Positions 13,448-36,722 of a stretch of 64,000 bases of DNA are shown here, in pieces. The position numbers were made by a program, and so were the translations under genes. Positions within the stretch are counted from its first letter, which is position 1. Every line of letters begins with the position of its first letter. Source of the DNA: a virus; the IMG/VR virus record IMGVR_UViG_3300022743_000002, positions 1 through 64,000 of that record, one strand, 5' to 3'. The notes beneath the pieces were generated by a model. The model saw only the letters and a program-made list of their open reading frames with translations. It was not told the DNA's origin and ran no database searches.

Positions 13448-14899
13448 TTACTTCGGGAGCCACTTTGCGCCGTTGGGCAAAATGTTCTTGATCACGGCAT
13501 GATGGCGACGCTTGGTGATACGCAGGTAGCCGAACATCAGCTGAGCCCAGGGAATGACGGCCGCGTTGGTTGGGTACAACGGGAACTTCATCATGGGCAG
13601 CAGCTGGCGCCAGTTAATGGCATGGTCACCTGCGCTCATGTTGAGAACGTAGGCCTTGGTGGTGCCAGGAATGTCTCGGTTGTAGTCAGTGTAGGTCGTC
13701 GTTGCGCCCGCACACGCCACACGAGCCACCAGGCGGAAGTCGTTAGCGGCGTTGGTGCCGTTCATGCGGCTGCGATAAATGGCGTAGCCGGTCTCAGAGG
13801 CACCACCGGAGCGGGTGATGGTCAGCGTAACCTTCTTTCCGGCGGCCACGGCAGTCTGCGCGGTGATACGGCCGTCAGACTGGCCGTTGGCGTTCAAGCC
13901 GGTCACCAGGTAGTAGTAGTTACCGGCCCATGCCGCGCTGAAAGAAGAACTGGCGTCACTGACAGACGCATCGATGGCCAGGGTAGGCTTCATCGCGGTG
14001 TTGGCGGTAGCCAAAGCGGAATAGGTCACCTCAAACGGCACAGTCTGGTCGCCGTCGTTGATGAACACGTCATTGACGGTCTTCACGTCACCCCAAGAGG
14101 TGCGGATACCGACCACCGGCGAGCCCAGAGAAATGCCGCCGTTGGGGACGTTGTTCAGGCTCACGCGGAACGCTGGATCCAGACCCGTATCAAAGTCAGC
14201 CTGTGTGAGCTGGCTCATGAAAATGTGAGTAGGAGTCCCGAAGTTGTCGCGACGACTCACCTGGGCGGCGGCGGCGTTCACCATGTTGATAGATGCCAGA
14301 GACTGACCAGCGGCGTCCAGAATGTTGCCGGTGTCGACCTGGCCGGCAAGGATGCCTGCAGCGATCTGGGCATAGATGCCGTCGAACTCGGTAGGCACTA
14401 CAGCGCTGTCACCTTCAAAGGAAAGGTACTCAGCATCGGTCAGCAGCTGCTTGGCGCCAGCCTGCTGCTCAATCGCTTCCGAGCTGGCGAGGTTTTGCCC
14501 AAGAGTGGACACCAGAGAAACCTGACGCTTGGTCATCAGGTACTTCACCAGGCCGACGCGGCGAGCGTAGGAGCCGGTGGACTCATTGATGATACCAGTC
14601 TCGGTGTTAGTCGAGCCACCCAGGAATCCGCCGACGCCGGACTGTTCGGTCCATTCGTCAACTGTTGCTCCGGCGCCAGTCTTGGCCAGTTCGTTGAACA
14701 GGCGGAAATGCTTGTTTTCCTGGATGGTGGCCTGCATGGTCTTATCCAGGGACTGGATGCGCAACGCAGAACCGCCAGCGAAGCCAGACACGTCAGTGCC
14801 ATAACCGGCAGTCAAAGCCTTCTGCAAATCAGCCAGGACGTTTTCACCAACTTCGCCAGTCGTCGAACGGCCAGCTGCGATATCGGGAAGATTGATCAT
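13448..14899 (-). CDS. Major capsid protein (SPO1/Twort/A511-like)
   Basis: 483 aa; K|ALTAGYG..GGSALRIQSLD N-terminus and PTEFDGI resemble this capsid family. Confidence 0.9.
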   Translation of the reverse strand: MINLPDIAAGRSTTGEVGENVLADLQKALTAGYGTDVSGFAGGSALRIQSLDKTMQATIQENKHFRLFNELAKTGAGATVDEWTEQSGVGGFLGGSTNTETGIINESTGSYARRVGLVKYLMTKRQVSLVSTLGQNLASSEAIEQQAGAKQLLTDAEYLSFEGDSAVVPTEFDGIYAQIAAGILAGQVDTGNILDAAGQSLASINMVNAAAAQVSRRDNFGTPTHIFMSQLTQADFDTGLDPAFRVSLNNVPNGGISLGSPVVGIRTSWGDVKTVNDVFINDGDQTVPFEVTYSALATANTAMKPTLAIDASVSDASSSFSAAWAGNYYYLVTGLNANGQSDGRITAQTAVAAGKKVTLTITRSGGASETGYAIYRSRMNGTNAANDFRLVARVACAGATTTYTDYNRDIPGTTKAYVLNMSAGDHAINWRQLLPMMKFPLYPTNAAVIPWAQLMFGYLRITKRRHHAVIKNILPNGAKWLPK

Positions 14900-14928
14900 T
14901 TTGAAATTACCTCGTTGAAAATTTTGGA

Positions 14929-15549
14929 TTACTGCATGACGCGGGCGACGATGCTCTGGGGAATGGCTTCACCGCGGTTCAAGCAGCTTTCAGCCACGGC
15001 AATGTCTGTACCGGACAGGCGTCCTTCTTTCTGCGCGGCCAAAGCCTTCGCAAAAAACACATCGTGGCTCACGCCTGCCGGATCCGACTTCGCCATGGTG
15101 CCGGCACCAGGCTCCGGTTTCTCGACCACGGACACGACGGCTTTGCGGCCGCGGCCTTCTCCGGACAGCTTCTTGACGCTGTCGCTGAGCGACTTGATCA
15201 TCTCAGCCTGGCCTTTGATCAAGTCAATCGCGGATGCCATAGCCTTAGCCATGGTAGCCTCGCCCTTCTCGACCCGATCCTGCAGCGACTTCACCAAATC
15301 GGTGCCGTCCTGAGCTTCAACTTCCGTGCCGTCGTCAAGCGTAAACTTGAACGACTTTGCCATGGGCTTGTCGTCGCCGTCGTCGTCGCCGACAACATCA
15401 TCTGCATCACCATCCGAGCCGCCTTCCGCAGCGGCAGCTTGGATTTTTGATTCATCCTTACCGTCATCCGCCGGGAGCGCCTTGGTCATTGTTTCCTGAT
15501 CCGCACTGAGCTGACCCAGCTCAGCCATCAGCTTTTCAAATTGACTCAT
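14929..15549 (-). CDS. Putative scaffold protein
   Basis: 206 aa, acidic and helical, between protease and capsid; at least seven hydrophobic-x-K|S/A motifs (MTKA, MAKS, LVKS, MAKA, MIKS, MAKS, FAKA). Confidence 0.75.
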   Translation of the reverse strand: MSQFEKLMAELGQLSADQETMTKALPADDGKDESKIQAAAAEGGSDGDADDVVGDDDGDDKPMAKSFKFTLDDGTEVEAQDGTDLVKSLQDRVEKGEATMAKAMASAIDLIKGQAEMIKSLSDSVKKLSGEGRGRKAVVSVVEKPEPGAGTMAKSDPAGVSHDVFFAKALAAQKEGRLSGTDIAVAESCLNRGEAIPQSIVARVMQ

Positions 15550-16457
15550 GACTTACTCCGTTTGTTGAGACCATTTTTCAAATCGCGCATGAAGCGCTCC
15601 ACCCACTCAGCAGCCCTATCTGGCGCCATACTGAATTGCTTGGCGGCTTGCTCGACGAGCTCGCGGGCGCCAGGGTTCTTGCCAATGCCGCCGGTGCGCA
15701 TGCGCTCCGCCAGCTTGTTCCTAAAATCAAAATAGCTATGAATTGCGCCATCCAATGACTGCACGCGCATAGCCGAGCCGCCGGCAAGGGCGGCTGAATC
15801 TGTTCCGTATCCAGCTTCGAGTGCCTTTGCGAAGTCGAGGCCATCCGCCGACCAGGACTTCGCGAACGCGCCAAGGGGGATAGTTGCGCAGGTTCCAACG
15901 TGCTGATTTACCGGCGTTTTGGAAACGCCTATATTGTTCCAGCGGACCTTGCTCACGATCGCCTTGCGCATGCCGGTCTTAGCGTCGGCGACGACGGACT
16001 TTGCCAGGACGCTGCCGCCCACCGATGGATACCAGCGCTGGGGCGGGCTCACGTCAGTGATGGAAGACCAGAAGTCATTGGCGCGCTCAGCAGCCGGGCC
16101 GACGCCAGAATAAATCTCGGCCTTGACGAACGTCGTGCCACCTTTCTGGCGCACATCCAGCGGCCGACCGATTTCATACAGTTCGCAACCAGGTATGCCG
16201 GGCCTGCCTTGGGCTGCGTTTGGCTTACCAATCAGCGTGTAGTGATCAATGTCGATATTGCCGTAGCGTTTGAAATACTCCGCACTCTCAGCCAAGGCCT
16301 TCGCAGCGATCACCTCGTCCTGCTGATCAACCCCCTCGTTGCTGGCCTCAAAATAGACGATGCGTTGCCCGCCATCCATTTGGGGCGTTGCTTTGAGCAT
16401 CGAGCCGATACTCAGGAATTCAGGGATGCCAGCAAGGAGCTGATCGTCAGTTCTCAT
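15546..16457 (-). CDS. Prohead protease
   Basis: 303 aa; ASNEGVDQQDE, GNIDIDH, SVGG and TPVN motifs. Confidence 0.85.
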   Translation of the reverse strand: MRTDDQLLAGIPEFLSIGSMLKATPQMDGGQRIVYFEASNEGVDQQDEVIAAKALAESAEYFKRYGNIDIDHYTLIGKPNAAQGRPGIPGCELYEIGRPLDVRQKGGTTFVKAEIYSGVGPAAERANDFWSSITDVSPPQRWYPSVGGSVLAKSVVADAKTGMRKAIVSKVRWNNIGVSKTPVNQHVGTCATIPLGAFAKSWSADGLDFAKALEAGYGTDSAALAGGSAMRVQSLDGAIHSYFDFRNKLAERMRTGGIGKNPGARELVEQAAKQFSMAPDRAAEWVERFMRDLKNGLNKRSKS

Positions 16458-20000: not shown

Positions 20001-21589
20001 TCCATGCCGATCTTGCCGAGCGAGCCCTGCCACTTGTCTTTGGCGCCCTGCTTCATGGCAGTCACCAGAGCCGCATTGGCTTCCATCTCTCCCAGTGCCT
20101 GCCCCAGTATCTTTTGCGCGTCACCAACGGCGCGTCGCCGGCGGCCATTCATCTCCTGGGCGACCTGCAGGTCGGAGCCGTTTGCGGCCTCGCCCAGTTC
20201 AACCTCTTTTGCGGCGTCCATGAGCTCGCGGGCCTCGCCAAGCGCCTCGGCGCTGGTCTCCATGTAGTGGTGGAGGTGGAAATCCTGCACGCCTTCAGTG
20301 ATGCGCTCGACGTCTGCGGGCATGTCGGCGTGGATCCGGCGTGCCAGCACCTGAGCTGCACCGGCAATGCCAAGCACGTCCACCACGGAGCGGTCCACCA
20401 GGGCCTCGCCACCGACGGCAAGCGCCAGGCTGTTAATGCTGTTGTACGCGCCTATGCCGATATGCTTGCCCAGTGTTTCCTCGGGCTTTTCGCCGGCTAG
20501 GCGTTTGAACTCTGACAGGAACGCCAGTGTCTGTGCGGTGCGCAGGTCGTTGTTAAGGTCCTCGGTGATCTTGGCGTCATCGTCGGGGCTGGCGGTGTAC
20601 TCCAGCACGAACGCCTTGGGCTCGGATGGCGACTTGTCTATTTCGGCAGCTGCGGCGCGGGCTTTTTGTTGCACCTGCTTGAGCTTTTTAGCCGCCTTCA
20701 GGAGCTCGACGGCTTCCTTTGCCGACGCCAGCGTCTTTTCAGCCTTTGGCGCAGCGGGCTCGCGGATGCCTTCCAGTTCGGCCTTGACCAATTTGGCGGT
20801 CTCGCCACGTTGGACGGCAGCTTGCCGTTGCGCGTCGGTCAGGTTTGCGCGCTTCGCTTCCTTCGCTTTGTCGGCCTCCGCCTTCAATTCGTCTGCAGTC
20901 AAGCCGGATGCCTCAGCTCGGCCCTTGAAGTCCTGGCTGAAACCAAGTCCGCCCGGGTTGCTGTCGATTGGCGCCAAGTCCTGAACGCTCAGGGTCTCGG
21001 GGTCCTTGGCGTCTAGCGGCACCTCTCCTATTCCGCCTTCCATGCGCGCAGCGTGGTCAGCGACCAGCATTTGGCGCTGCAGGTCAACGGCCTGCACGGC
21101 CTGCTGCATGATGGCGCGGTGGTGTTTGTCGCGCATCTTTGCCTGGGCGGCTTCGCTCAGGTTCGCGTAGTCGGCCTCCGGAAACTCCAGCTTGCCCTTA
21201 TCCCAGCCCATGGTGGTCGCCACGGTCTGCACAAACTCGCGCTCGTGCTGACGCTGCTGGTCGCGAAGCGCCTGTTTAGCCTTATTCTTGGACTCCAGGA
21301 TGCCGGCTTCTTTGTCGGCGGCGCGCTGAGCCTTCTTTTCCTCGGCCTTGGATTTGCGACGGTCCTCGGCTTCCTTCTTGTACTCGGACTCCTTGCGGAC
21401 GCCGCGCAGCTTCAGGTAGTTCAGCTTGCCACCGGCGCCGCCTATCACATGGGCGCTGCCGTCCGCCTGTGGTTGGATTAAGACGGCTTGGCCATCAGAG
21501 CCAGGGCCGTTGGGGTGAACGGTGATCCAGCGGGCGCCATCCGGGATTGAGGCTTTCAGAAACAAAATTGGGCGGTCTTTTGGCAGCAT
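17033..21589 (-). CDS. Large SF2 (SNF2-like) helicase polyvalent protein
   Basis: 1518 aa; FGTGSGKS, DESQ, ASGDP, QRNGRIFRTGQ; N-terminal PILFLK|A tag. Confidence 0.85.
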   Translation of the reverse strand: MLPKDRPILFLKASIPDGARWITVHPNGPGSDGQAVLIQPQADGSAHVIGGAGGKLNYLKLRGVRKESEYKKEAEDRRKSKAEEKKAQRAADKEAGILESKNKAKQALRDQQRQHEREFVQTVATTMGWDKGKLEFPEADYANLSEAAQAKMRDKHHRAIMQQAVQAVDLQRQMLVADHAARMEGGIGEVPLDAKDPETLSVQDLAPIDSNPGGLGFSQDFKGRAEASGLTADELKAEADKAKEAKRANLTDAQRQAAVQRGETAKLVKAELEGIREPAAPKAEKTLASAKEAVELLKAAKKLKQVQQKARAAAAEIDKSPSEPKAFVLEYTASPDDDAKITEDLNNDLRTAQTLAFLSEFKRLAGEKPEETLGKHIGIGAYNSINSLALAVGGEALVDRSVVDVLGIAGAAQVLARRIHADMPADVERITEGVQDFHLHHYMETSAEALGEARELMDAAKEVELGEAANGSDLQVAQEMNGRRRRAVGDAQKILGQALGEMEANAALVTAMKQGAKDKWQGSLGKIGMESAIQRVRAIGLQRGDYTLDTVAGDTFLTINAAGMDRLAKPIARDDVAQVQRNLSIIRGDEDEDGWLPLGVANRPDLAMDVKPGVAPRLAEPFTPGDDLEQSLRDYIGGRAADGDAPGDIVADIQSAAFFEKVGFDKAEQYRAALDAVAPLKDAKGKQRRSEALAGAFDGYADVFVQNRYGGERSTLNRQSFSVDQTSVDALHRALSEHPDGVAAFKQIGELTSQDQRTLREHFYRNVAKESPEQGALRAEVERLEANEPEKETTDMFGDTTVNPEWSDWSTQRNEAAAKANAAGLDWPKYVEAMHGHEKAYEAIQDLIRSNVGKAFADNHNKLNPGKPLKLGRSVIRNNLNHLDATDPAAREERQARERELVDSLRERSQGRYAAGSVSDKLDAARDQDEAFNQAQMGFFGSDDAPVEKEATQADLKGDERHSLGHVAERQIAGMMGVVGKNFKPGQPTKLWAPTMSGGKNAARQRLVKMVDANKRVVAAFGTGSGKSLLQLASFTHLHQQGKAKRGMFLVPSIVQGQFSGEALRYLEPGKFNWHIEPGASRDERIKAYKNPDHHFCVMTHQSFRDDMMHLGATHSGISESEMADRLNSMTDAERKDWMGGIMEREGINFDYLTTDESQYTLNRQGKENSGLANVVDALSAHTPYYVTASGDPVKNDASEVYDLMRKMDPARYNDRGAFMRRYGADTLASKDALKREMARYVYPSKIDPDVTADRKESKVALSGGQQQALAELDKHFTSARIARMEGKVDVAAMKAISPASFDGVAEADHDEVAKGLQQSLGIMRSSAVQRVINTHPDNPLIDDLVKKAADRKGKPGVVFAHNREAVRMITERLQKEGHRVVTITGSDSGKEKERKRLMFNPEQGEAQADILVASDAGATGMNIQRGEWLYQHDTPQTAMTHAQRNGRIFRTGQKNNVELIDGIADHPEVHKARERLQRKYGLRELMTSPMEGLDDTGVAHYIKQRQVAEKDAPGSLF

Positions 21590-21613: not shown

Positions 21614-21943
21614 CTACAGCCCGCCGGCGTCAGGATCCACCAACCGGAACGTGCCGCCGCCAGTCGGGTCCGCGACTTCGGACCCACCAAGGTTAAACGA
21701 CGCATTGGTGCGGTATTCCTCGATAGCGGCCGCAAGCGCAGCCTGCAGGTCCGCATGGGCCGGCATGCGCTCGAATACGGACTGATCCATGTGGTCACCA
21801 AGCAGGAACAGGTTGTCGCGGGTGTAGAACTTCTTCAGAACCTGCTTTACCAGGTACCAGTGCGAGCCAAAATTGACATACCGGCTAGGGTCGTCCTGGA
21901 GCAGCTGCAGCGTGCTGGCGGCGAAGGTTTTGGGGTCGATCAT
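21614..21943 (-). CDS. Hypothetical protein coupled to the DarB-like gene
   Basis: 109 aa; ATGA overlap with the upstream stop, AAGGAGG RBS. Confidence 0.75.
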   Translation of the reverse strand: MIDPKTFAASTLQLLQDDPSRYVNFGSHWYLVKQVLKKFYTRDNLFLLGDHMDQSVFERMPAHADLQAALAAAIEEYRTNASFNLGGSEVADPTGGGTFRLVDPDAGGL

Positions 21944-27900: not shown

Positions 27901-28548
27901 CTTCAGCGTCATATCAGACGCCATGCGCCTCACCGTTGCGCCAACCTTGAAAGCCGTGCGAGGTGGAACCTCAAGCACTGAAGTGGTCACAAGGTCGTCG
28001 TATCTGTGCTCGCTCACGAGCGCCGTGATTTCTTTCCCGACCCTGTCCTTGAAGGTAACCACATCGCCAGGCTGGAACTTCGCCCTGGACGGTTTCGACT
28101 CCTGCACTGGCGCCTTGTCCGCAAACAGATCCGGCGTCTCGCCCTTCTCCGGCTCCTTTTCCGCCACGGCATCGAACATGGCCGACACTTCAGCGGGAGT
28201 TTTTCCGGCCAGCTTCGCCATTTCAGCGAATAGAGCCTGCTGCTGTCCTTCGGAAAGACCGGCGATTGTGGAACCAAGCAAGCGCAGGCCGCCATGGCGG
28301 GCGATGAATGCGTCCAGCTTGGAGCGCTTTACTGCCGGCGCTGGAGCATTGTGCTCGGCAAACATATCCAGCGTAGCGTGGTGCGCCGGCGCCGGTGCGC
28401 GCTTTACCGACACTTTCTGGATGCGCACATGGGCATCGACTAACGCGCCATCTTTGCGGACATGGGCCGCAACGTGGACGGGCGCGTCAAACAGATTGAA
28501 TTGGGATTTGGTAAAAAAGATGAGCATGTGACAGCCTTCTGGGAGCAT
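21940..28548 (-). CDS. DarB-like N6-adenine methyltransferase / SNF2 helicase fusion
   Basis: 2202 aa; EFYT, LEPSCATG, GNPPYG methylase motifs; DDVGLGKT, DEMH, TATP, QRNGRGLRQGN helicase motifs. Confidence 0.9.
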   Translation of the reverse strand: MLPEGCHMLIFFTKSQFNLFDAPVHVAAHVRKDGALVDAHVRIQKVSVKRAPAPAHHATLDMFAEHNAPAPAVKRSKLDAFIARHGGLRLLGSTIAGLSEGQQQALFAEMAKLAGKTPAEVSAMFDAVAEKEPEKGETPDLFADKAPVQESKPSRAKFQPGDVVTFKDRVGKEITALVSEHRYDDLVTTSVLEVPPRTAFKVGATVRRMASDMTLKHRAPAKPEPVKPPKAEVKPAREVDESDQDRSHREWREHYDRIVNLSAADLVREGTKDLERASNYGAQKIAAEKRKGWDGGSVNTALINSMQVDVDAIDAELKRRRDKRDAKAGKIKTVSAEKVQTQPAKPAEVENKPAPVLVVPHDPTAPFGVPAGTSKKKRLAINSDVVKRLADGGPYSDADRALFRQYSGNGGCGDSLNEFYTDPEVARGMWTAIAALGVTGGTALEPSCATGVFLHTAPAGFKVTGVELDPTSAAAATALHGDRHEIHTASLERFATSDDRQFDVVIGNPPYGPRGFLAKDDKKDISTAEAYFTDTALDKCKPGGIVALVVPTGIMDSKTNRSLRERLLTKGEFLGAQRMPNTAFEHSHTEVTTDVIYLRKRPDDVAGALGTVDQATLQKLGVWDAEFISGEYFTGRGASNVLGTMTEGWRAKAGMGNDITVEGSMDGVADAIADFTPESESAPAISVTMHHILGALGDDQKAKDRALSAAFRRPYANIAKVGDTKVVDGVTYVLQGDPPRWHSVDEYMQTAAISDAEALGVEIEMAKRGVVRDGLADRVRAYVEKHGNPNDSVDVKTAANVNKIIFNLLGAVNRKGELSDLVTGTVRKTESGFDATAQALALQHNGDTFDAAELADRLGKTVDEVEDQLAADQRYAFAVGGWTTMDAYLTGDLWLRLDAAKKELETNAHPELADKLRLQIERLEKTIDPKSLDDVDIQVNSAFIPTHILSEFMTWKLHDGPDANDWTKKERAIDVKFDSGVYFITGGNSYSTEYKALNAYLNRGTKDAKMMKEYRPVIDALNVEFKDWLCASAHRDAIEEKYNRSFRGFVAPEYSNEPIEVPGLNPNKSVRDWRWSSLRRSLATGKGIIADDVGLGKTLGGLLLARMAKVQGTTKRPVIVAPKSVLANWYSETQDWFPGSKVLTIGANFAKDKDGMLVGVDDTADERKRKYHDMTQNDYDFVIISEPSFEEIDITPERKEQYYSEDFWVQRGDKLDNVGDKRRKAIKENFEQSVAQREFSERTNAVYFEDLGIDMLIADEMHHQKNLYSARARFGDQPKFLGGQGLSNRALDFNMKARWIRETNGGKNVHGLTATPTKNSPLEVYSMLSHIAPEAFERIGIRNSEEFLDRFCEFVPDKVLSTKGDIEDATVVAGFKNMDELREIMSRYIDRRTAAEVGLKLPSRDDRMHLVDMTRAQQDAYAELRELAEESSGKKDATGDSHIFSIMDKMHKAALDLSILDPVRYAGAESPKYKELAKQCLEGAKEGGQIVFSELIESHDKIVAALVDAGFKKSEIGIINADVAKSSVKRQNIADKLNAGIFKVVIGNCTMAEGLNMQKTTTDIHHMDVPWDPATLQQRNGRGLRQGNNKEAVRIHTYLSKGSFDGYRYQAVSAKKDWQDILWNGGDKVENLARQGKVSRDEMRIMLAADPEAARAEFEKDKDEATKRFDAGKREDAQAQYVRFTEISRTYKSMKNRDSVSGQRLRQKIEAAKTALFNNAYWPAKSALDSVTDVLIHPQSGTVLAANQGMEFPDEGKMVVTGVNMRAGTVTMRRHANIGGGRDVTVPVDKLSDAKPFKFDAETEASEVGAAMTAQAEAKLNSLTSWNEVKVMPSAVLEKNHDLIQRQIKDGAKSHKFSMPYGAIPMVDKATGEIKMAESYEHAKLHDTHDYLLPTDAAKEKAIQAWMDERRGAKIGIQNVSKGSGRGRGSRSGASVSSAAREYKGASYTEKHINPMRGLLRELSGVSTHGIDSPLEREAKSRLATEQVQRIRRAPSALDAINELLPLGSLHGSREGYGADSSFYAKYPKQALAMAWARARHLGQLDATIPMRHGGHNDYAWSHAHGKTIHSALIRMARNSGHDDLADAFAATGERHGLSKVHTDTLEAMTHGPEYHKPSSRALEQIGKLAERAGVMDDTIGQLANKNIRLGGAFTPSSSYYNYGREDKNRKTVREVLDAQLDAQRHKEHQERLENQQAKEAA

Positions 28549-28572: not shown

Positions 28573-30903
28573 TCAGCGCGGCGCCAGGAATACTACAGGC
28601 ATAGACTTTGTAATGTCTGGATTAGAGCCATCGAACTCGCCATTGTTGCCGATAGCCGATTTGATCTGCGTCGGATCAAAAACGACGTACTCAGCGGGGT
28701 AGTCACCGTTCTGGATGTGCCCGTAGCTCAAAATTACACCGTCGTGGCCCTTGGCGGCCAGTTCCTGCGTCCACTTCGCGGCAGCTTCATTGTCACCGCG
28801 GCGCTCGGCGAGCATCAGCCGCTGCTTGTCTTCCAGTGTGGCCTGATACGGGTTCTTTAGGCTCAGGTAGACAGGCATCACGTTGGGTGACGCGCCAGCC
28901 TTGAGGTTGGTGTAGCTGTTGGAGATTTCGGTGTCGTTGGTGAAGTAGAAGCCCTGACCGAGCCAGCCGTTGTCTTTTTTGTTGGCGTGGCCGTGCTTGA
29001 ACTCAGCGAAGTCATCAGCGGTTCCGTGATAAACGATCAACGGCTTACCATTCCCGTCAACCACTTTACTGCCTCGAAACCAGGTCTTGAACTTCGCGGT
29101 TTCGGTTGGATGCTGGAGCGCGGCCGGCTTCGGGGCCAGTCCAGCAGCCACAGCCTGCAACGCCTTCCTGGGGTCTACAAACTCCAATTTGGTGCCCATG
29201 TCGGTGTGACCGACGCGGATCAGGCTCTTGATGTGCGGGCGCACGGCGTGTGACGTGATGCCGAACACCTCGGCGGCCGCTGGAATGAACCACTTGAGCC
29301 CAGATGAGCCAGCTTTCAGGCCTAGCCGATTTAGGTCCATATCCGTGACTTCGCCGCCGGCCATCAACCGATCGCGCATGGCGGCCAGCGCGGTGGCGCG
29401 ATCGGCCTTGTTTTTGGCGGAACTCTCGCGGTTCGATAGCCACTGCTTGCCCTGCGCCGCAGCATCCTCCGGCTTCGCGTGGTACGCGCTCAAAATATCT
29501 TTGCCCGGGAGCTCGACCGCGTAGTGGCCAGCGATTAGCCCTTTGCCGCGCGACCAGGTTGTGCCCTCGGGGAAATCGGACAGCAGGTGGTCGTGCTCGT
29601 GCTCGCCCGCGGGCTCGGTGTGCTGGAGCTCGTCGGCGAACATATCTGGCGTGTGAGTTACCGCGTCCTTGCCGTTCAGCGGGCTCGGCCCCATCGGTTT
29701 GCCGCTCATGGGGCCGCCAAATAGGCTCATTTGCCCGGGCGTAGCATGCGGGCGCGCAGATCGACCCTGATACCCAGCGACGTTCACCAGACGACCGCCA
29801 CGCAGGTACGGGCCAACATGGGATTTGAAGAACAAGACCATGCTCTTGGCGATGGTGGCGCCGCCGGCCGTACCTCGGCTTTCCACGCCGTTGTCGTCGT
29901 TGAACTTCTTGGCGACCTTGATCAACTCCATCGCCGGCATGCCGATCTTGATGATGGGTAGCTGCTTGCCTTCGAGCGCAGCGACGGCCCAGCGGTGGTG
30001 ACCGTCGAGCACGCGATTGTCGGACGACACCAGAATGCGGGTTTTGGCGTCGTACCGGCCCGCCCGCGTCTCGTCCGTCAGGTAGTCCATATTGGCGGCG
30101 TTGTAGGTGCCCTGGGTCGGCTTCAGTTCGGACGGGTTCACCGTGGCCTCGGTCACGGAAACACCTGACTCACGCAGCCCGTTCAAGAACTTTTCTTTCA
30201 CGCCGCTCGGAACCTGGGGCATGTCATCCCGGCGGATGCCAAGCGACGGCTTGAACATTTCCGCGTACTGCTGGTGCCGCTGGCGCTTGTCTTCGTGGGC
30301 CTGCACCACAGTTCCATCGGAGCGGGTGTAGGTATCGACGTGGGCCTTCAGCAGCAGCGCCTTGATCATGGCAGGCTTGTCGATCGTGGCGCGCACCTTG
30401 GAAACGAACTCGGCCACCGGCATGGCGGTGATGGGGCCCAGGAAACGCGGGTCGGTGTAGTTGGCCAGAAATGCCTGCTTGGCGTCTTCCTCGCTATCGA
30501 ACCCGGCCATGGCCTTGTCTTCATCGTAGCGGGTCCAGTCGCCATAGGTGTTCTGGTGCACCACGTAGACCATGGGCGCGTCCGGGTTCGGGCCCATGTA
30601 GATATCGACCGGGTCACCATCCACGCCCATGGATCCGACCACCTCGCCGTAGTCGTAGGACATGCGGATTTCCCAGGCCTCGCCGGACCGGTTCACGCCG
30701 CGGCGCACGGATCCCGCCGGATTCTCAATTGCCAGCGTCAGTCCCTGCCATTCGATGCGTGGCTTCTTGTAGGCGCCCTCGCCGGCCTGGGCGGCACTGG
30801 GCTCGCCGGGGTTTCGGCGAACTTCGCCTTCCCCCAGGTCGGCAGGCTTGGCGGCGCCGCTCATTGCCTGTGTGACGGGGTGGGATTTGAGGAAAACGAT
30901 CAC
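28573..30903 (-). CDS. Polyvalent protein: inorganic pyrophosphatase-like, ParB-like and ADP-ribosyltransferase (ART-PolyVal-like) domains
   Basis: 776 aa; DYG..DGDPVD..DEDK; LKPTQ..VLDGHHRW; VYHGT..GFYFT..LKNP..HDGVI..EYVVFDPTQIKS. Confidence 0.85.
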   Translation of the reverse strand: MIVFLKSHPVTQAMSGAAKPADLGEGEVRRNPGEPSAAQAGEGAYKKPRIEWQGLTLAIENPAGSVRRGVNRSGEAWEIRMSYDYGEVVGSMGVDGDPVDIYMGPNPDAPMVYVVHQNTYGDWTRYDEDKAMAGFDSEEDAKQAFLANYTDPRFLGPITAMPVAEFVSKVRATIDKPAMIKALLLKAHVDTYTRSDGTVVQAHEDKRQRHQQYAEMFKPSLGIRRDDMPQVPSGVKEKFLNGLRESGVSVTEATVNPSELKPTQGTYNAANMDYLTDETRAGRYDAKTRILVSSDNRVLDGHHRWAVAALEGKQLPIIKIGMPAMELIKVAKKFNDDNGVESRGTAGGATIAKSMVLFFKSHVGPYLRGGRLVNVAGYQGRSARPHATPGQMSLFGGPMSGKPMGPSPLNGKDAVTHTPDMFADELQHTEPAGEHEHDHLLSDFPEGTTWSRGKGLIAGHYAVELPGKDILSAYHAKPEDAAAQGKQWLSNRESSAKNKADRATALAAMRDRLMAGGEVTDMDLNRLGLKAGSSGLKWFIPAAAEVFGITSHAVRPHIKSLIRVGHTDMGTKLEFVDPRKALQAVAAGLAPKPAALQHPTETAKFKTWFRGSKVVDGNGKPLIVYHGTADDFAEFKHGHANKKDNGWLGQGFYFTNDTEISNSYTNLKAGASPNVMPVYLSLKNPYQATLEDKQRLMLAERRGDNEAAAKWTQELAAKGHDGVILSYGHIQNGDYPAEYVVFDPTQIKSAIGNNGEFDGSNPDITKSMPVVFLAPR

Positions 30904-32592: not shown

Positions 32593-33189
32593 CTATATTT
32601 GTGCAATGCCGCGCAAATATATTTCATCAAAAATAGCATCGAGTACGGGGTGACGCTGGCTCATGGCCGTTACCACCTGGCGCGCATCGCTGTAATACTT
32701 GCGCTTTCTGTCTGCGCCCCAAGCCGGTGGCATAACCAGCAGGTCCCGCAAGTTAGCAGTCTTGTCTGCCACCTTCACGGCGGCCGCCCTGGGGCTCATG
32801 GTTTGCGCGTGGGCTACCTGCATCGCCAGCTTGTCTTCGGGCTTCACGTCTTCGTTCGTGAGCTCCGCCACGGCGTCGGCAACGTCATGACCAAATTCAG
32901 CCACCAGGTTTTCGTGGCTGACGCCGCAGTCCTCAATGGTGTCGTGCAGCAGAGCCGTGATCAGCGTGGCGTCATCGGTGACGCCAGCCTCATCGTGCAG
33001 GATTCGGGCGACTGCGCGCGGGTGTTCGATGTAGGGAACCTTGGGCGCGCCAGGCTGGCCCTTGCGGTACTGGCCGGTGTGGGCCCGCTCCGCGAACTTG
33101 TCGGCGCGCCTGACGTGAGGGGAAACGTAAACGCCATTGCGGCGGGTATGGCCCGCCACATGAACCGTTGATTTGAACAAGAGGATCAC
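32593..33189 (-). CDS. HD-domain (p)ppGpp hydrolase-like protein (SAH/Mesh1 family)
   Basis: AHTGQYRK, PYIEHP, ALLHDTIED, VKVADKTANLRD; N-terminal ILLFK|S tag. Confidence 0.88.
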   Translation of the reverse strand: MILLFKSTVHVAGHTRRNGVYVSPHVRRADKFAERAHTGQYRKGQPGAPKVPYIEHPRAVARILHDEAGVTDDATLITALLHDTIEDCGVSHENLVAEFGHDVADAVAELTNEDVKPEDKLAMQVAHAQTMSPRAAAVKVADKTANLRDLLVMPPAWGADRKRKYYSDARQVVTAMSQRHPVLDAIFDEIYLRGIAQI

Positions 33190-33398
33190 GCCTGATCCCT
33201 GGTCTCGGCCTTTTGTTCACCCATGTAGGGCTTCACTTCGTCGAGGGTCATGGGGTTGCTCAGCCTACGTACCCTGTCGACGTCGCCTTCGTAGGGCTTC
33301 CATTGGCCGGTCCGCTCTAGGTAGACCTCCATCTTGCCGCCGGCATCCCGGAAAACAGCCCCCTCGACCTCAAAATACTGCTCAGTTCCCATTTTCAC
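33186..33398 (-). CDS. 70 aa hypothetical protein between synthetase and hydrolase (candidate antitoxin/regulator)
   Basis: Overlaps both neighbours; function inferred from position only. Confidence 0.65.
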   Translation of the reverse strand: MKMGTEQYFEVEGAVFRDAGGKMEVYLERTGQWKPYEGDVDRVRRLSNPMTLDEVKPYMGEQKAETRDQA

Positions 33399-34980
33399 GC
33401 CCCTTCAAATTCCACAAGATCATTCTAGGCGTTGGCATAGATTTAGTCAAATTTGATGATTCATTCTGTTGTTGTTTCTCACCAGCCTTAGCTTTCTCCC
33501 AGGCATCACCGTAGAGAGACTCCTGCTCTTTCATGGCGGCGGCGTGCGTCTCACGGTCCTTGGCGTCCCATTTGCTTGTATCTGAGCCAACGCCATTCTC
33601 GCGATATTTACCTTCTATTGATCGCGTTGTCTCGTATGGCTTGTGGCCTTTTTCCTTGGCCAGCGTCATTGGCTTCACGTGCACCTGCATCTCGGCGAGC
33701 ATGCCGTTGGGTAGCCGCATGATCATGTTGATATCGCGGTAGCCGCCCGGCAATGGCTTGACCAGGTTGTTCTTGGGCTTCTGCGCCAGCTCGATGCCGG
33801 CCGCCTTGAGCTCGGCGAGCACCTTCGGGATTTGGGTGACGCCAGGCACTGCGATTGTGGCGCGCACCATGTCGCGCAGCTGCGACCAGTCGCCGTCGTA
33901 GTCCTGGGCGACCTTCTCCTTGGCGCGCTTCTCGCCCTTGAGCGGGCCCATGAACAGGTAGCCGCGATCGTCGTCCCAGTGCTCGGGCAGCATGTAGTCG
34001 GTGTCGGACAGGTCGGCCGGATTGCGGCCTTCCTTCTCGGCGTTGATCTTCTCCTCGTGCTGGGCGTGGTCCAGCGACTGCGGGCGCTTGCCGGTCACCA
34101 GACCAAGATTCTGCGCGACCTTGCTGAGCATATCGCTGTACTGCTTCAGGCCTTCCTCGCCCTTGGACTTCAGTTCATCCCATGACTGGACAGGCTGATT
34201 GACCTTGGTCGGCAGCTTATCGAGCTCTGAGGTATCGAATAGCGCGCGAGCGATCCCCTCGGCGCCGTCGGGGGCCGGCTTTGGCGTTCCCGGCGCGTCT
34301 ACCTGGTTGGGTTGCGTCTCCTGGTGCGGACTCGCGTCCGGCTTACCTTCGCCGCCCCAGTGGTGGGTAATTTTGTCATGCGTTACAAGGTGTTGGCCAC
34401 CGGCGCTGTCCCGGACACGCACGCCGTCCTTGCCGGATGCCGTTACCTCGCCGTGCCCCTTGTGCTCGCCATTGGCAAAGCCGACGTGCTGGCCGCGCTG
34501 GGCCGGCGGGCTACCCTGGTCAGTGCTGACCCACTTGGTAGTTTGAACGCCATTCTTATCAGTGATTACCTTCTTTTGCAGACCGGGTGCACCAGCGTAG
34601 GTTCCCGGCGCTGACGCCTTCATAAATAGCATGACGGGCCGCGTGTGCCCCATTGATTTAGCGACCATTGGGTCTTCCTTGGATTCGTTTGGTATTGCCA
34701 CAAATCGACGCCGGCCGGACTTGTCCTCGACCAGCATGCCATCCTCTCCTTGATCGACGACGGCGTATTTTTGCAGGGCCCGGGTCTTGTGACCAAGGAC
34801 CTTGTCCCATCGGACCGGGTGATGGCCGCCGTCAATCTCGACGGTTACGCCGTGCTTTCCGTGCGCCTTGACCAAGCCGGTGCGCGGTTGTCCGCGGTGG
34901 TGCACATACAGATGGTCGCCCACCTCGACGTCGTGGCGCGGCTCCGGCTCCGGGCGCGGCTTAGGCTTCTGGTAGGTCAT
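33382..34980 (-). CDS. RelA/SpoT-type small alarmone synthetase domain protein with N-terminal SH3/KOW-like modules
   Basis: GPLKGEKRAKEK, LRDMVRAT, GGYRDIN and AEMQVH synthetase motifs. Confidence 0.85.
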   Translation of the reverse strand: MTYQKPKPRPEPEPRHDVEVGDHLYVHHRGQPRTGLVKAHGKHGVTVEIDGGHHPVRWDKVLGHKTRALQKYAVVDQGEDGMLVEDKSGRRRFVAIPNESKEDPMVAKSMGHTRPVMLFMKASAPGTYAGAPGLQKKVITDKNGVQTTKWVSTDQGSPPAQRGQHVGFANGEHKGHGEVTASGKDGVRVRDSAGGQHLVTHDKITHHWGGEGKPDASPHQETQPNQVDAPGTPKPAPDGAEGIARALFDTSELDKLPTKVNQPVQSWDELKSKGEEGLKQYSDMLSKVAQNLGLVTGKRPQSLDHAQHEEKINAEKEGRNPADLSDTDYMLPEHWDDDRGYLFMGPLKGEKRAKEKVAQDYDGDWSQLRDMVRATIAVPGVTQIPKVLAELKAAGIELAQKPKNNLVKPLPGGYRDINMIMRLPNGMLAEMQVHVKPMTLAKEKGHKPYETTRSIEGKYRENGVGSDTSKWDAKDRETHAAAMKEQESLYGDAWEKAKAGEKQQQNESSNLTKSMPTPRMILWNLKGRENGN

Positions 34981-36722
34981 GATTGAATTCTGAACACCGG
35001 CAGGCCAAACGACTTGGCTATGTCCTGCTGATCATCTCCGGGCCTCTCCGTAGCCCCAGCATCATCGGGCGCCCCGAAGTCTTGCCCGCCCTGATCGTCA
35101 CCAAAATCCTGATCGCCGCCGCCGTCATCGCCGTCATCGGTCGACTGCCCAGGCTCAGCGCCAGGCTGGCCGTAGTCCTCTTGCTGCGGCATTGCCTCTT
35201 GTTGCCAGGCGCCAACCAGCGAGGGATTCAATGGAGCGTCACCCCACTTACCGTCGGCCTTGTCGACGCCGTCCTCGGCTCGGATCTCGTTGACGGTGCG
35301 CGTCATTTTTTTGCGCTCCCAGATCGTCTTTTCGTCTTCCTCGTCCAGGCCGGTGAACTGGAATTCGTACTTGTCACTGAACTCGCCAATGACGTACTCG
35401 CTCAGCGTGGACTCGAAATAGCTCAGCAGGGGGCGCAGGCCCTTGTCTTTGCTGTTGACGATCTTCTCCTCGGTGTCGTCTCCGCTCAGCGATGACGTTC
35501 CGGACGTGAAGCTCTCAAAATTGATTTCCTCGGGCGCAATGCCGTAGATCGCGCAGATGATGGATGACAAGAACGTCATCCACTTGGCGAACATGATTTC
35601 GTTGGCGGCGTTACCGAATTCCGTGAAGTCGGCTTTCGACTCCTGATCCTTGGACACCATGACGGGCAGCGTCCAGGCGTTATTGACGCCCTTGACCATG
35701 CCGTTCCAGTAGCGCTTAAAGGCGGCAACATCCTCGTCGCTGTAGTTTCCGTACAGGTTCAGCATGCCCTTGGGTATGGCGTTGCTGTCGAAAAATTTGG
35801 TGTTGTAGGTGAAGGCGTTCAGAAAGCCCGTCACCACGCGGATAAGCAGTTCCGTCTCGGACAGTCCGTAGCCGCCAGCAAGCACGTCGGTGCGTGGGTT
35901 GCGCGGCACATACACCAGGTCGTCATAGGTGTAGGCGCTGCGGATCTGGCCTTGCACGACCTGGAGGGCGAAAATCTCGTCTTCGCCTTGGTAGCCGTCT
36001 TCGCTGCACAACCGAATGGTGGCTCCGTCGACGGCGTACATGCCGTCCAGGCCGAGCGACTTGTCGCGCTTCCACTCGGTCTCAATCGGTGCGCTGTCCA
36101 TGGTGAGGCTGTCGCGCACCAGCTTCATCATGAAGTTTTGGAAGTTGTCGCGCTTCAGGCGCAGGCGCTGGCGGGGCTTGGTCTCCCAGCCGCTGTTGGT
36201 CACGAATGACTCCAGCAGCTTAATGGTGGCCTTTTCGTTTTCGTCGATGTTCTCCAGCTTTTCCTTGCTGGCGATCCTGAAACCCGACCCCTTGCCACCC
36301 TTCTGCGGCCGGCAAAACCTGGCCACCTGGCGCTGGCGCGTCATTATGACGGCGTTCAAAATCGGCGTTTGGTCCACCATGGCGCGCATGGCATCAAACG
36401 TGAATTGGCCGGGTCGCTCGAACCAGTCGCCGTTGATGTTGATCTGCAGGTCGTCCAGCCAGACCGACTGCATGCCGGGCTTCTTGTCTTTGATGGCATT
36501 CGACGGGAACGGGATGACGTTCTGCTTTTGCAGCGACTTCGCCATGGCCTGATCGTCCAGGTCACGGTTGATGTAGTCAATGATGGGCTGAATGTTCGCC
36601 GCCGGTATCAGGTCCGACAACGCCTTGGGCATGCTGGATTTTTGAAGCTCCGCCATGGCTTCAGTCCGCTCGTCGGCGGGCGCACGTGGATCAGCGAGTA
36701 TGGCGCGGGCAGCATCAGTCAT
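34977..36722 (-). CDS. Portal protein
   Basis: 581 aa; DGATIRL, GYGLSETE, PKGML, ICAIYGIAPEEIN, KGLRPLL and TVNEIRA portal motifs. Confidence 0.92.
   Translation of the reverse strand: MTDAARAILADPRAPADERTEAMAELQKSSMPKALSDLIPAANIQPIIDYINRDLDDQAMAKSLQKQNVIPFPSNAIKDKKPGMQSVWLDDLQININGDWFERPGQFTFDAMRAMVDQTPILNAVIMTRQRQVARFCRPQKGGKGSGFRIASKEKLENIDENEKATIKLLESFVTNSGWETKPRQRLRLKRDNFQNFMMKLVRDSLTMDSAPIETEWKRDKSLGLDGMYAVDGATIRLCSEDGYQGEDEIFALQVVQGQIRSAYTYDDLVYVPRNPRTDVLAGGYGLSETELLIRVVTGFLNAFTYNTKFFDSNAIPKGMLNLYGNYSDEDVAAFKRYWNGMVKGVNNAWTLPVMVSKDQESKADFTEFGNAANEIMFAKWMTFLSSIICAIYGIAPEEINFESFTSGTSSLSGDDTEEKIVNSKDKGLRPLLSYFESTLSEYVIGEFSDKYEFQFTGLDEEDEKTIWERKKMTRTVNEIRAEDGVDKADGKWGDAPLNPSLVGAWQQEAMPQQEDYGQPGAEPGQSTDDGDDGGGDQDFGDDQGGQDFGAPDDAGATERPGDDQQDIAKSFGLPVFRIQS

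What the first reader, a model, noticed from the sequence alone, without database searches (positions are those of the whole stretch)
28573..30903. 776 aa protein looks like a cleavable polyprotein with tags at domain junctions
Seen: MIVFLK|SH - PPase-like domain - MIK|ALLLK|AH - ParB-like domain - IAK|SMVLFFK|SH - linker plus ART domain - ITK|SMPVVFLAPR*. Internal tags are doubled (K|S, hydrophobic run, K|S), so cleavage would excise the tag and release separate enzymes. The synthetase (VAK|SMGHTRPVMLFMK|A; C-terminal LTK|SMPTPRMILW) and the portal (IAK|SFGLPVFRI) share this pattern. Inference: 'polyvalent' phage proteins here are fusions of tagged modules that are processed inside the head.
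Basis: partly seen in the sequence, partly recalled or inferred. Interest (0 to 1): 0.82.

Follow-up and report, generated by a model that had tools for sequence, protein, structure and literature searches.

The report
Cut-and-address tags joining phage cargo enzymes
A phage gene next to its head-assembly genes strings three or four enzymes together with short greasy peptides ending in lysine, which match the site where this phage family's head protease cuts, so the enzymes are probably loaded into the capsid as one chain and cut apart there, although no cutting has been measured.

Summary
The 776-aa ORF (28573-30903, minus strand) carries an InPase domain, a ParB-N-like domain, an unknown domain and an ART-PolyVal domain. 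It has four short tags, each a hydrophobic run bounded by h-x-K|[S/A].

- **Position:** all four tags lie in low-confidence AlphaFold linkers or at the termini.
- **Specificity:** the strict tag pattern occurs six times in all six-frame ORFs of the window, each time in a head-module cargo gene.
- **Conservation:** among 208 homologues, the residue ending the InPase module is K in 207. It is then followed by a stop behind a tag (67 homologues), by a tag plus another module (92), or directly by another module (46).
- **Shuffling:** stand-alone InPase genes, such as Bordetella phage PHB04 gp028, end exactly at the first internal tag. Three module types recur behind either an N-terminal leader or another module's K|.
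- **Cut site:** the K|[S/A] site aligns with the annotated mature start of the Listeria phage A511 capsid protein (ALK|SFTTGYG). The motif is 4.5-fold enriched in scaffold, protease and portal.

Cleavage of the cargo itself is inferred, not shown. The closest known cases are the T4 and P1 capsid-targeting sequences and polyvalent proteins. I rate this a new variant of a known kind. The scan has flagged the same grammar before, on other DNA from at least 94 genomes.

The parts
28573..30903 (-). 776-aa polyvalent cargo gene (GTG start, stop at 28573-28575)
   Evidence: ORF list. Start context with AAGGAA SD and GTGA overlap with the upstream gene. Identical protein P0001 found on contigs of up to 89,771 bp.
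30886..30903 (-). N-terminal leader MIVFLK (residues 1-6), predicted cut K6|S7
   Evidence: Homologues start M-[IVLF]4-K-[SA]-H-P. pLDDT is below 50 over residues 1-29.
30373..30798 (-). InPase (type I inorganic pyrophosphatase-like) domain, residues 36-177
   Evidence: Pfam PF18823, E 2.5e-42. Foldseek matches 4z70, 2uxs and 4ecp. pLDDT 72-97.
30343..30369 (-). Junction tag 1: M179-I-K181|A-L-L-L-K186|A187
   Evidence: Among 208 homologues the K181 equivalent is K in 207 and the next residue is A/S/G in 205. PHB04 gp028 ends here with ...MIKALVLFLAARPAN*. pLDDT is below 50 over 178-193.
30283..30342 (-). Basic hairpin type 1 (HVDTYTRSDGTVVQAHEDKR, residues 188-207)
   Evidence: 77 occurrences in the homologue set; 75 follow K-[TASG]-x and 23 lie within the first 15 residues of a protein. 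The same motif follows the leader of the HD hydrolase and of the DarB-like protein.
29872..30300 (-). ParB-N/Srx-like domain with DGHHRW, residues 202-344
   Evidence: Foldseek matches 5k5d/5k5a, the pNOB8-like ParB-N domain. phrog_2859 over residues 203-337. No Pfam hit at E<1. pLDDT 82-96.
29821..29853 (-). Junction tag 2: I351-A-K353|S-M-V-L-F-F-K360|S361
   Evidence: pLDDT is below 50 over 345-394. Homologue P0002 lacks the ParB module, with the joint at this tag.
29713..29820 (-). Basic hairpin type 2 (VGPYLRGGRLVNVAGYQGR) plus PGQMSLFG, residues 362-397
   Evidence: 102 occurrences, all preceded by K-[ASG]-x and 100 of them by a hydrophobic run. Nearly invariant columns Y366-F395 in alignment A1.
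29104..29607 (-). Folded domain of unknown function, residues 433-600
   Evidence: AlphaFold pLDDT 92, pTM 0.71. Best VIA-align Z 4.8, no clear fold match. No Pfam hit.
28618..29103 (-). ART-PolyVal ADP-ribosyltransferase domain, residues 601-762
   Evidence: Pfam PF18760, E 7.7e-29. Weak PARP matches.
28576..28614 (-). C-terminal tag I764-T-K766|S-M-P-V-V-F-L-A-P-R*
   Evidence: Homologues end ...PDITK[SA] + 0-12 residues + hydrophobic run + basic residues + stop, or continue into another module at this K. pLDDT is below 50 over 763-776.
14816..14827 (-). Predicted maturation site of the major capsid protein, L-Q-K27|A28
   Evidence: BLASTP aligns it with A511 Cps ALK23|S24, the annotated mat_peptide start. 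SPO1 gp6.1 and phage 812 MCP have K|A and K|S at the same column, and chain 9row_B starts there. Conserved in PHB04, Dolphis, ST4, Touem01 and Mecenats66.
15546..16457 (-). Prohead protease (303 aa), the presumed cutting enzyme
   Evidence: phrog_1028 head maturation protease, E 2.8e-34. 24% identical to the A511 prohead protease over 205 aa. Contains six h-x-K-[SA] motifs.
34980..35021 (-). Portal C-terminal tag D-I-A-K|S-F-G-L-P-V-F-R-I-Q-S*
   Evidence: K[AS]FG[LF]P..[RK] is conserved at the portal C-terminus in all six related phages.
28504..28527 (-). Leader of the DarB-like 2202-aa protein (MLIFFTK|S)
   Evidence: PHB04 gp027 starts MIILLTK|AQLALFD. In locus L058 the same module follows ...APAMIK|AQQLSLFDAPV.
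21551..21571 (-). Leader of the 1518-aa helicase (PILFLK|A)
   Evidence: In loci L031, L041, L053, L072 and L075 the same WITVHPNG module follows an internal h-x-K|[SA].
33169..33189 (-). Leader of the HD (alarmone hydrolase-like) 198-aa protein (VILLFK|S)
   Evidence: PHB04 gp032 starts VIVFLK|AQVAGYTRQDG. HD_4 Pfam hit.
34615..34665 (-). Internal tag of the 532-aa protein (VAK|SMGHTRPVMLFMK|A)
   Evidence: PHB04 gp034 has LVTK|SLGADGRVLLFFK|A at the same place.
33385..33450 (-). C-terminal tag of the 532-aa protein (LTK|SMPTPRMILWNLKGRENGN*)
   Evidence: PHB04 gp034 ends LQK|AAPFSKMIMLIRRT*.

Best explanation
The 776-aa protein is capsid cargo of a PHB04-like myophage, built as a polyprotein.

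**Module grammar.** Each module is bounded by a site of the form hydrophobic-x-Lys|Ser/Ala. This is the same site at which this phage lineage's SPO1/A511-type prohead protease trims the major capsid protein. The short hydrophobic run next to the site (MIVFLK, ALLLK, SMVLFFK, SMPVVFLAPR), possibly together with the basic hairpin that follows it, serves as a docking or address element. That element brings the chain into the procapsid or presents the site to the protease.

**Predicted products.** Inside the prohead the protease cuts at K6, K181, K186, K353, K360 and K766. This would release three fragments and small hydrophobic peptides:
- a 19-kDa InPase fragment
- an 18-kDa ParB-like fragment
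- a 44-kDa fragment holding the unknown domain and the ART domain

The fragments would then be injected with the DNA.

**Why modules shuffle.** Because the grammar is the same at N-termini, C-termini and junctions, modules can be fused, split and reordered at K|[SA] without losing loading or release.

**What is shown and what is inferred.**
- Shown: motif positions, their conservation, shuffling at the joint, and equivalence of the motif with the mapped capsid site of a homologue.
- Inferred: cleavage of the cargo, the address function, and injection.
For: 1. **Linker position.** All four tags lie in AlphaFold segments with pLDDT below 50, between confidently folded domains.
2. **Site equivalence.** The A511 record annotates the Cps mature peptide as starting at S24 after ALK. 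BLASTP puts the window's LQK27|A28 on that site. SPO1 and phage 812 capsid proteins have K|A and K|S in the same column, and a deposited mature chain (9row_B) begins there. The window's protease is homologous to the A511 prohead protease.
3. **Motif statistics.** [ILVMF].K[SA] occurs 19 times against 4.2±2.0 expected in portal, protease, scaffold and MCP (z 7.6). The scaffold has 7 and the mature capsid body has none beyond the N-terminal site. Tail and replication proteins show 17 against 14 expected (z 0.9).
4. **Junction conservation.** K is present in 207 of 208 homologues at the end of the InPase module. It is followed by stop-after-tag in 67, tag plus next module in 92, and a direct next module in 46.
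5. **Same module behind a leader or behind another module, joint at K|.**
   - DarB N-terminus: window MLIFFTK|SQFNLFDAPV, L058 AMIK|AQQLSLFDAPV.
   - Helicase N-terminus: window ILFLK|AS..WITVHPNG, L031/L075 and others h-x-K|[SA]..WITVHP.
   - InPase N-terminus: window MIVFLK|SHPVTQAM, P0070 SSITK|SHPAIQGA.
6. **Lineage link.**
   - 78 of 80 related viral loci carry this portal, MuF-like, MCP or protease set.
   - Leptospira phage LE1, which has the same capsid type (NFMK|SFNANSDG), has tags after its InPase.
   - F116 and Vibrio phage douglas 12A4 have the same enzyme domains but other virion types, and no tags.
7. **Window specificity.** The strict tag pattern occurs only in five head-module genes of the window.
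Against: - No proteomic or biochemical datum shows that any cargo protein of this phage group is cut. The experimental anchor concerns only the capsid protein of a 25%-identical relative.
- At junctions the residue after K is often G or T, whereas head-protein sites here are A or S.
- The basic hairpins are always preceded by K-x-x. The lysine could therefore belong to a structural leader-plus-hairpin unit rather than to a scissile bond.
- The giant neighbours hold 4 to 7 further h-x-K-[SA] motifs inside folded regions, so the motif alone cannot define cutting.
- A crude test of BLAST breakpoints against tag positions gave no enrichment (0.099 against 0.088 within 15 residues).
- The count of 0 tags inside domains against 307 outside is partly circular.
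Confidence: 0.6

Rival explanations
1. The tags, with their hairpins, are address or docking elements only. They bind scaffold, capsid interior, portal or the MuF-like protein, and the protein is packaged and injected as one uncut 84-kDa chain. At most the N-terminal leader is removed. The lysine is part of the docking motif.
For: - Hairpins never occur without the preceding K-x-x and hydrophobic run, so the two look like one unit.
- P1 DarB is loaded through an uncleaved-looking N-terminal signal (PMC9024508).
- N4 vRNAP is packaged unprocessed (PMC5512222).
- G or T after the lysine is frequent at junctions.
Against: - The junction motif matches the capsid maturation site and is strongly enriched in proteins that proteases normally digest.
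- Many homologue junctions keep only h-x-K|[SA], with no hydrophobic run. That fits a cut site better than a docking strand.
- C-terminal tags have no hairpin.
Confidence: 0.27
2. The tags are neutral linker relics of gene fusion: remnants of former N- and C-termini, or short recombination homologies. They have no role in assembly or processing.
For: Modules clearly were fused and split at these places, and AlphaFold sees the tags as unstructured.
Against: - Relics would decay, yet K is kept in 207 of 208 homologues and the hydrophobic run in most.
- The same grammar is kept on stand-alone genes at both ends.
- It is also kept on portal, scaffold and protease across six phages.
- Internal tags hold one hydrophobic run, not the two expected from an end-to-end fusion.
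Confidence: 0.06
3. The internal K-S-M positions are internal translation starts. They would yield separate proteins, each with its own N-terminal leader (MVLFFKSH resembles MIVFLKSH).
For: Three tags in the window read K-S-M, and the sequence after M355 mimics the true N-terminus.
Against: - There is no Shine-Dalgarno sequence before the internal ATG (ccatcgccaagagcATG).
- In homologues the residue after K[SA] is usually V, I, L, A or H, not M.
Confidence: 0.03

Closest known systems
Phage T4 capsid targeting sequence (CTS) of internal proteins IPI-III and Alt, removed by prohead protease gp21 at I/L-x-E| (Mullaney and Black 1996, as cited in PMC12991175 and PMC9024508)
   Same: A short N-terminal peptide on injected enzymes, ending in the same site at which the head protease trims capsid proteins. 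Cargo is loaded into the prohead and then trimmed.
   Different: - The site here is h-x-K|[S/A] and the protease is of the SPO1/A511 type, not gp21.
- The leader is a 4-6-residue hydrophobic run.
- Tags also sit at C-termini and between enzyme modules, so a multi-enzyme chain would be cut apart.
- A basic hairpin follows the site.
- Nothing has been tested experimentally.
Phage P1 Dar system: DarB with an N-terminal 30-residue capsid targeting signal, plus Ulx, DdrB and DarA (PMC9024508)
   Same: - The neighbouring 2202-aa MTase-helicase is a DarB relative (30% identity to P1 darB by tblastn).
- PHB04 has an Ulx-like gene beside it.
- The cargo lies among head genes and has an N-terminal signal.
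   Different: - P1 cuts its capsid protein after Glu (E120|S121), and the authors found no consensus among Dar N-termini.
- Here one explicit grammar is shared by all cargo.
- The P1 DarB N-terminus (MNKLSMGVFRCSS) shows only a vague likeness.
Phage-type polyvalent proteins (Iyer, Burroughs, Anand, de Souza, Aravind 2017; PMC5512222)
   Same: InPase, ParB-like and ART-PolyVal domains sit in one polypeptide encoded among virion genes. The paper draws the polyprotein analogy explicitly.
   Different: - The paper proposes release by an embedded zincin-like MPTase domain. This protein has none.
- Here release would be in trans, by the prohead protease at junction tags.
- The paper does not mention linker tags: the word 'linker' occurs 0 times.
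Maturation of the capsid protein in SPO1-like phages (Listeria phage A511 Cps, 23 residues removed; mat_peptide annotated in NC_009811)
   Same: The capsid and protease families are homologous and the aligned cleavage column is the same, K|S/A.
   Different: That knowledge concerns the capsid protein only. Cargo proteins bearing the site and tags are not described for A511 or SPO1 in what I could read.
Multi-site processing of head and ejection proteins in giant phages (phiKZ, 201phi2-1, SPN3US; PMC10052503, PMC7411985)
   Same: The prohead protease cuts many packaged proteins, some at several sites.
   Different: - The motif differs (after Glu) and so does the protease lineage.
- No shared hydrophobic tag or module-shuffling grammar is reported there, as far as I read. 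I saw the abstracts only.

Membership tests
Phage-type polyvalent proteins (Iyer et al. 2017) | Two or more unrelated effector domains in one polypeptide | tested here: met
   Pfam InPase plus ART-PolyVal. ParB-N fold by Foldseek. A fourth folded domain at residues 433-600.
Phage-type polyvalent proteins (Iyer et al. 2017) | Encoded among late or virion genes of a phage or prophage | tested here: met
   The gene lies between the portal (34977-36722) and the protease, scaffold and MCP genes (13448-16457). It is translationally coupled to the MuF-like gene.
Phage-type polyvalent proteins (Iyer et al. 2017) | Embedded MPTase peptidase for self-processing (frequent, not obligatory) | tested here: not met
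   No peptidase family in the Pfam, NCBIfam or PHROG scans of the 776-aa protein.
Substrates of the SPO1/A511-type prohead protease | The phage encodes a homologous protease and capsid protein, with the mapped K|S/A site conserved | tested here: met
   MCP aligns to A511 Cps with K27|A28 on K23|S24. Protease is 24% identical to the A511 protease. SPO1 and phage 812 MCPs share the column.
Substrates of the SPO1/A511-type prohead protease | The protein carries the site in an accessible, unstructured segment | tested here: met
   All six h-x-K-[SA] motifs lie in segments with pLDDT below 50.
Substrates of the SPO1/A511-type prohead protease | The protein is actually cleaved at these sites in proheads | not testable with these tools
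   This needs virion proteomics or co-expression. No such data were found for PHB04-like phages.
T4-type capsid targeting sequence systems | A short terminal peptide is necessary and sufficient to load a protein into the prohead | not testable with these tools
   Only indirect support: the tag is shared by otherwise unrelated head-module proteins and is absent from the same enzyme domains in other virion lineages.
T4-type capsid targeting sequence systems | The peptide ends in the consensus site of the phage's own prohead protease | tested here: met
   The leaders end in K|[SA], the same site as the predicted capsid, portal, scaffold and protease sites.
P1 Dar-like antirestriction cargo | A DarB-type MTase-helicase (and an Ulx-like partner) next to head genes | tested here: met
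   This applies to the neighbouring 2202-aa protein, not to the 776-aa protein itself. Pfam N6_Mtase/Eco57I plus SNF2 plus Helicase_C. tblastn to P1 darB. Ulx-like gene in PHB04.

The most novel reading that the evidence does not exclude
Phages with SPO1/A511-type heads, from Proteobacteria to Leptospira, may share a general, recombination-friendly 'address-and-cut' grammar: a hydrophobic run, then h-x-K|[S/A], often followed by a basic hairpin.

Under this reading:
- Any enzyme placed behind the cassette is loaded into the capsid.
- The head protease releases it in trans.
- It is injected with the DNA.

If so, the injected counter-defence arsenal (InPase, ParB-like, ART, Acb1, GNAT, RadC, DarB, helicases, alarmone enzymes) could be read from sequence. 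Modules could be swapped at a single residue. The cassette could also be reused to deliver foreign proteins from phage heads.
Probability: 0.5. Interest if true: 0.8.

Novelty: new variant of a known kind. Interest (0 to 1): 0.66.

Why it matters
- **A second route to processing polyvalent proteins.** They are thought to be processed, if at all, by their own embedded peptidases. A trans-acting head protease with junction tags would be a second, simpler solution. It would also explain how these proteins shuffle modules so freely.
- **Prediction from sequence.** The grammar gives a sequence-level rule for predicting which phage proteins travel in the capsid. It covers anti-CBASS, antirestriction and ADP-ribosylating enzymes, in phages that have never been cultured.
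- **Possible use as a delivery handle.** The cassette suggests a compact way to load proteins into phage heads.
- **A practical warning.** Cuts after lysine look like tryptic ends, so routine trypsin-based virion proteomics would miss this processing. That may be why it has not been described.

Tried and rejected
- **BLAST-breakpoint test.** Breakpoints were no closer to tags than random positions (0.099 against 0.088 within 15 residues). I judge the test badly designed, because tags and hairpins are themselves conserved and HSP ends are fuzzy. It therefore gives no support.
- **Tags inside against outside domain hits.** The result was 0 against 307. It is real but partly circular, since the domains were defined from the query.
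- **Protease-type covariation.** The one locus fetched, L006, showed only tail and baseplate genes, so the idea stays untested.
- **Internal translation starts.** Rejected: there is no SD sequence and the Met is not conserved.
- **Known family for the hairpins or tags.** None was found in Pfam, NCBIfam or PHROGs.
- **Fold of domain 433-600.** No match above Z 4.8.
- **Sec/Tat-type signal.** The leader is far too short; this rests on inspection only.
- **Tool failure.** One large alignment of 84 sequences failed in the tool and was replaced by 31 sequences.
- **Literature searches.** I found no description of such tags. The library is incomplete, so this is no proof of absence.
Full report
**What is there.**
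- The window is the first 64 kb of an 87,750-bp single-contig phage genome.
- The ORF 28573-30903 (minus strand) encodes 776 residues from a GTG start. The start has an AAGGAA ribosome-binding site and overlaps the stop of the upstream 386-aa gene.
- Pfam finds InPase at residues 38-169 (E 2.5e-42) and ART-PolyVal at 616-757 (E 7.7e-29).
- An AlphaFold model built on 31 homologues has mean pLDDT 73 and four confident folded blocks: 36-177, about 202-344, about 433-600 and 601-762.
- Foldseek matches the first block to inorganic pyrophosphatases and the second to the pNOB8-like ParB-N domain, with weak PARP matches for the last.
- The third block, folded alone at pLDDT 92, has no clear structural relative; the best Z is 4.8.
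The exception is that its 'linker' holds a real extra domain.

**The tags.**
- Every quoted string is present: MIVFLK6|S, M179IK181|ALLLK186|AH, I351AK353|SMVLFFK360|SH and I764TK766|SMPVVFLAPR*.
- They fall in the model's low-confidence stretches: 1-29, 178-193, 345-394 and 763-776.
- All six [ILVMF].K[SA] motifs of the protein lie in these four places.
- The strict pattern [ILVFM]{4,6}.?K[SA] occurs six times in 437 six-frame ORFs (55,045 residues). Each hit is in one of five neighbouring genes: the 1518-aa helicase, the 2202-aa DarB-like methylase-helicase, this protein, the 198-aa HD hydrolase and the 532-aa protein. Four of the hits are at the N-terminus.

**Relatives.**
- The capsid protein is 45-50% identical to those of Bordetella phage PHB04, Pseudomonas phages Dolphis and Touem01, Aeromonas phage ST4 and Morganella phage Mecenats66. 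It is distantly related to SPO1/Twort-type capsid proteins.
- PHB04 has the same gene order. Its InPase, however, is a separate 169-aa gene (gp028) that begins VGAVVLLKA and ends ...DKPAMIKALVLFLAARPAN*. It therefore stops exactly where the window protein has its first internal tag.
- All six phages keep a portal C-terminus of the form K[AS]FG[LF]P..[RK], a capsid N-terminal h-x-K|[AS]L(Q/T/E)A, and MLKA near the protease N-terminus.

**Homologue survey.**
- Two database searches gave 240 relatives.
- Of the 208 that cover the end of the InPase module, 207 have K at the position of K181. The next residue is A in 151, S in 38 and G in 16.
- After that residue, 67 proteins stop within 22 residues (nearly all after a hydrophobic run plus basic residues), 92 continue with a hydrophobic run, [KR][ASTG] and another module, and 46 continue at once.
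- Dozens of stand-alone InPase proteins of 160-200 aa carry both an N-terminal leader and a C-terminal tag.
- Architectures vary widely: InPase-ParB-tag-D-ART, InPase-tag-D-ART, InPase-tag-ART-tag and tag-ART-InPase-tag. Partner domains include Acb1, GNAT, RadC, PAPS reductase, LPD3 and DUF5710.

**Modules joined at K|.** The same module appears either behind an N-terminal leader or behind another module, with the joint at K|.

| Module | Behind an N-terminal leader (window) | Behind another module |
|---|---|---|
| InPase | MIVFLK\|SHPVTQAM | P0070: SSITK\|SHPAIQGA |
| DarB-like | MLIFFTK\|SQFNLFDAPV | L058: APAMIK\|AQQLSLFDAPV |
| Helicase | ILFLK\|ASIPDGARWITVHPNG | L031, L041, L053, L072, L075: h-x-K\|[SA], 6-10 residues, WITVHP |

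**Is K|[S/A] a protease site?**
- The GenBank record of Listeria phage A511 annotates the mature capsid protein as starting at S24, after ...QEDALK.
- BLASTP aligns that K|S with the window's DLQK27|A28LTAGYG.
- SPO1 gp6.1 (DALNK|ALEAGH) and phage 812 MCP (EDVVK|SFQTGYG) share the column, and the deposited chain 9row_B begins at the equivalent of A28.
- The window's protease (phrog_1028) aligns with the A511 prohead protease at 24% identity over 205 residues. The alignment includes a shared FxK|SW...G(Y/H)GT segment that copies the capsid's mature N-arm.
- The motif [ILVMF].K[SA] occurs 19 times against 4.2±2.0 expected in portal, protease, scaffold and capsid protein (z 7.6). The scaffold has seven and the capsid protein only its N-terminal one.
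- The same motif gives 25 against 15.5 expected in cargo (z 2.5) and 17 against 14.0 in tail and replication proteins (z 0.9). This is the pattern expected of a maturation protease that digests scaffold and spares the shell.

**Link to the head lineage.**
- Of 80 viral contigs with close InPase relatives, 78 carry homologues of this portal, MuF-like protein, capsid protein or protease in the flank, and 77 have the M[IVL]K|[ASGCT] ending. The two loci without markers lack it.
- Leptospira phage LE1 has a capsid protein reading NFMK|SFNANSDG. After its InPase it has KKAK|SVIIK|SSIKNLFLK|S plus a hairpin.
- F116 p60 and the 3026-aa protein of Vibrio phage douglas 12A4 have the same enzyme domains but other virion types, and they have no tags.
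- The sample is small and not independent. It does fit a signal that belongs to the head machinery rather than to the enzymes.

**The hairpins.**
- Behind most tags comes one of two basic hairpins: VxxYT(R/K)xDGxxV..H, or VG(P/A)YLRGG(K/R)xVN..GYQGR followed by PGQMSLFG.
- The second occurs 102 times, always after K-[ASG]-x, and 100 of those follow a hydrophobric run. The first occurs 77 times, 75 of them after K-[TASG]-x, and 23 lie at protein N-termini.
The hairpin, which would remain on the mature fragment, may be the address label, or leader plus hairpin may be one uncut unit. I cannot separate these readings.

**Comparison with what is known.**
- T4 internal proteins and Alt carry an N-terminal targeting sequence that gp21 removes at I/L-x-E (cited in PMC12991175).
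- P1 DarB is loaded by its first 30 residues.
- Iyer et al. 2017 describe these very domains as 'polyvalent proteins' and compare them to polyproteins. They propose release by embedded MPTase domains and do not mention linker tags.
- The present protein has no peptidase domain.
- I found no paper describing the tag grammar.
- The scan itself has flagged the same theme in at least 94 other genomes and in this genome. Those are unchecked notes, not evidence.

**Verdict.**
- Well supported: the modules are bounded and exchanged at h-x-K|[S/A], and this motif equals the lineage's capsid maturation site.
- A good inference (about 0.6) but unproven: the head protease cuts the 776-aa protein into fragments of 19.0, 18.4 and 43.8 kDa plus small peptides, and the hydrophobic runs address it to the prohead.
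- Weak points: G or T is frequent after the lysine, the hairpin coupling is unexplained, motif copies exist inside the folded parts of the giant neighbours, and one of my own tests failed.
- Cuts after lysine mimic tryptic ends, so the decisive experiment must avoid trypsin.

Noticed in passing
window 15546-16457 (-), protease residues about 198-242; L010 3442-4236 (A511 protease): After FAK|S the protease carries a copy of the capsid protein's mature N-arm (SW..GYGTDSAALAGGSAMRVQSL). A511's protease has the same feature (FMK|SWTTGHGTTPDTQVNAGALRRESL), so it is conserved across very distant SPO1-type heads.
   Followed up: partly
L011 11383-14040 (Leptospira phage LE1 gp25): The N-terminus of this InPase-bearing protein (MLTANSEGNTDVGNLTGGAALQ) resembles the mature N-arm of the LE1 capsid protein (K|SFNANSDGITDVTALTNGAAT). 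This could be a different way of riding into the capsid.
   Followed up: no
window 28480-28503 (-) (DarB-like residues 16-23, first residue 16 follows S15) and 29719-29736 (-) (776-aa residues 390-395): Sliding-clamp-binding-like peptides sit right behind the predicted cut sites: K|SQFNLFD in the window, K|AQLALFD in PHB04 and K|AQQLSLFD in L058. A nearly invariant PGQMSLFG follows hairpin 2.
   Followed up: no
P0103, P0067, P0079, P0092 (homologues): InPase modules are joined through the same K|A-plus-hairpin junction to an anti-CBASS Acb1 domain, a GNAT acetyltransferase, a RadC-like JAB domain or a PAPS-reductase domain. This suggests virion-delivered counter-defence enzymes.
   Followed up: partly
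window 14929-15549 (-): The 206-aa scaffold-like protein has seven h-x-K-[SA] motifs (MTKA, MAKS, LVKS, MAKA, MIKS, MAKS, FAKA). This is far above expectation and fits complete digestion during maturation.
   Followed up: partly
window 21940-28548 (-) and 17033-21589 (-): The mechanical ORF starts (MLPEGCH..., MLPKDRP...) lie 7 and 3-6 residues upstream of the leaders. PHB04 starts at MIILLTKA and MKPILFLKA, so the true starts may be further in (M8 for the DarB-like gene).
   Followed up: no
L009 3836-4075 (P1 darB): P1 DarB begins MNKLSMGVFRCSS. Residues 6-10, reported as needed for packaging, read MGVFR. This is a hydrophobic-plus-basic pentad faintly like the portal tag PVFR(I). The likeness is too weak to count as evidence.
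   Followed up: no
window 29104-29607 (-): A well-folded 168-residue domain (pLDDT 92) lies between hairpin 2 and the ART domain. It has no Pfam hit and no structural match above Z 4.8. It is conserved in many homologues, with invariant W106-F107-I108-P109 in domain numbering.
   Followed up: partly
window 30900-32060 (-): The 386-aa protein upstream has the MuF-like C-terminal HPHCRGRW motif and conserved synteny in all relatives. It has no Pfam, NCBIfam or PHROG hit and no tag.
   Followed up: no
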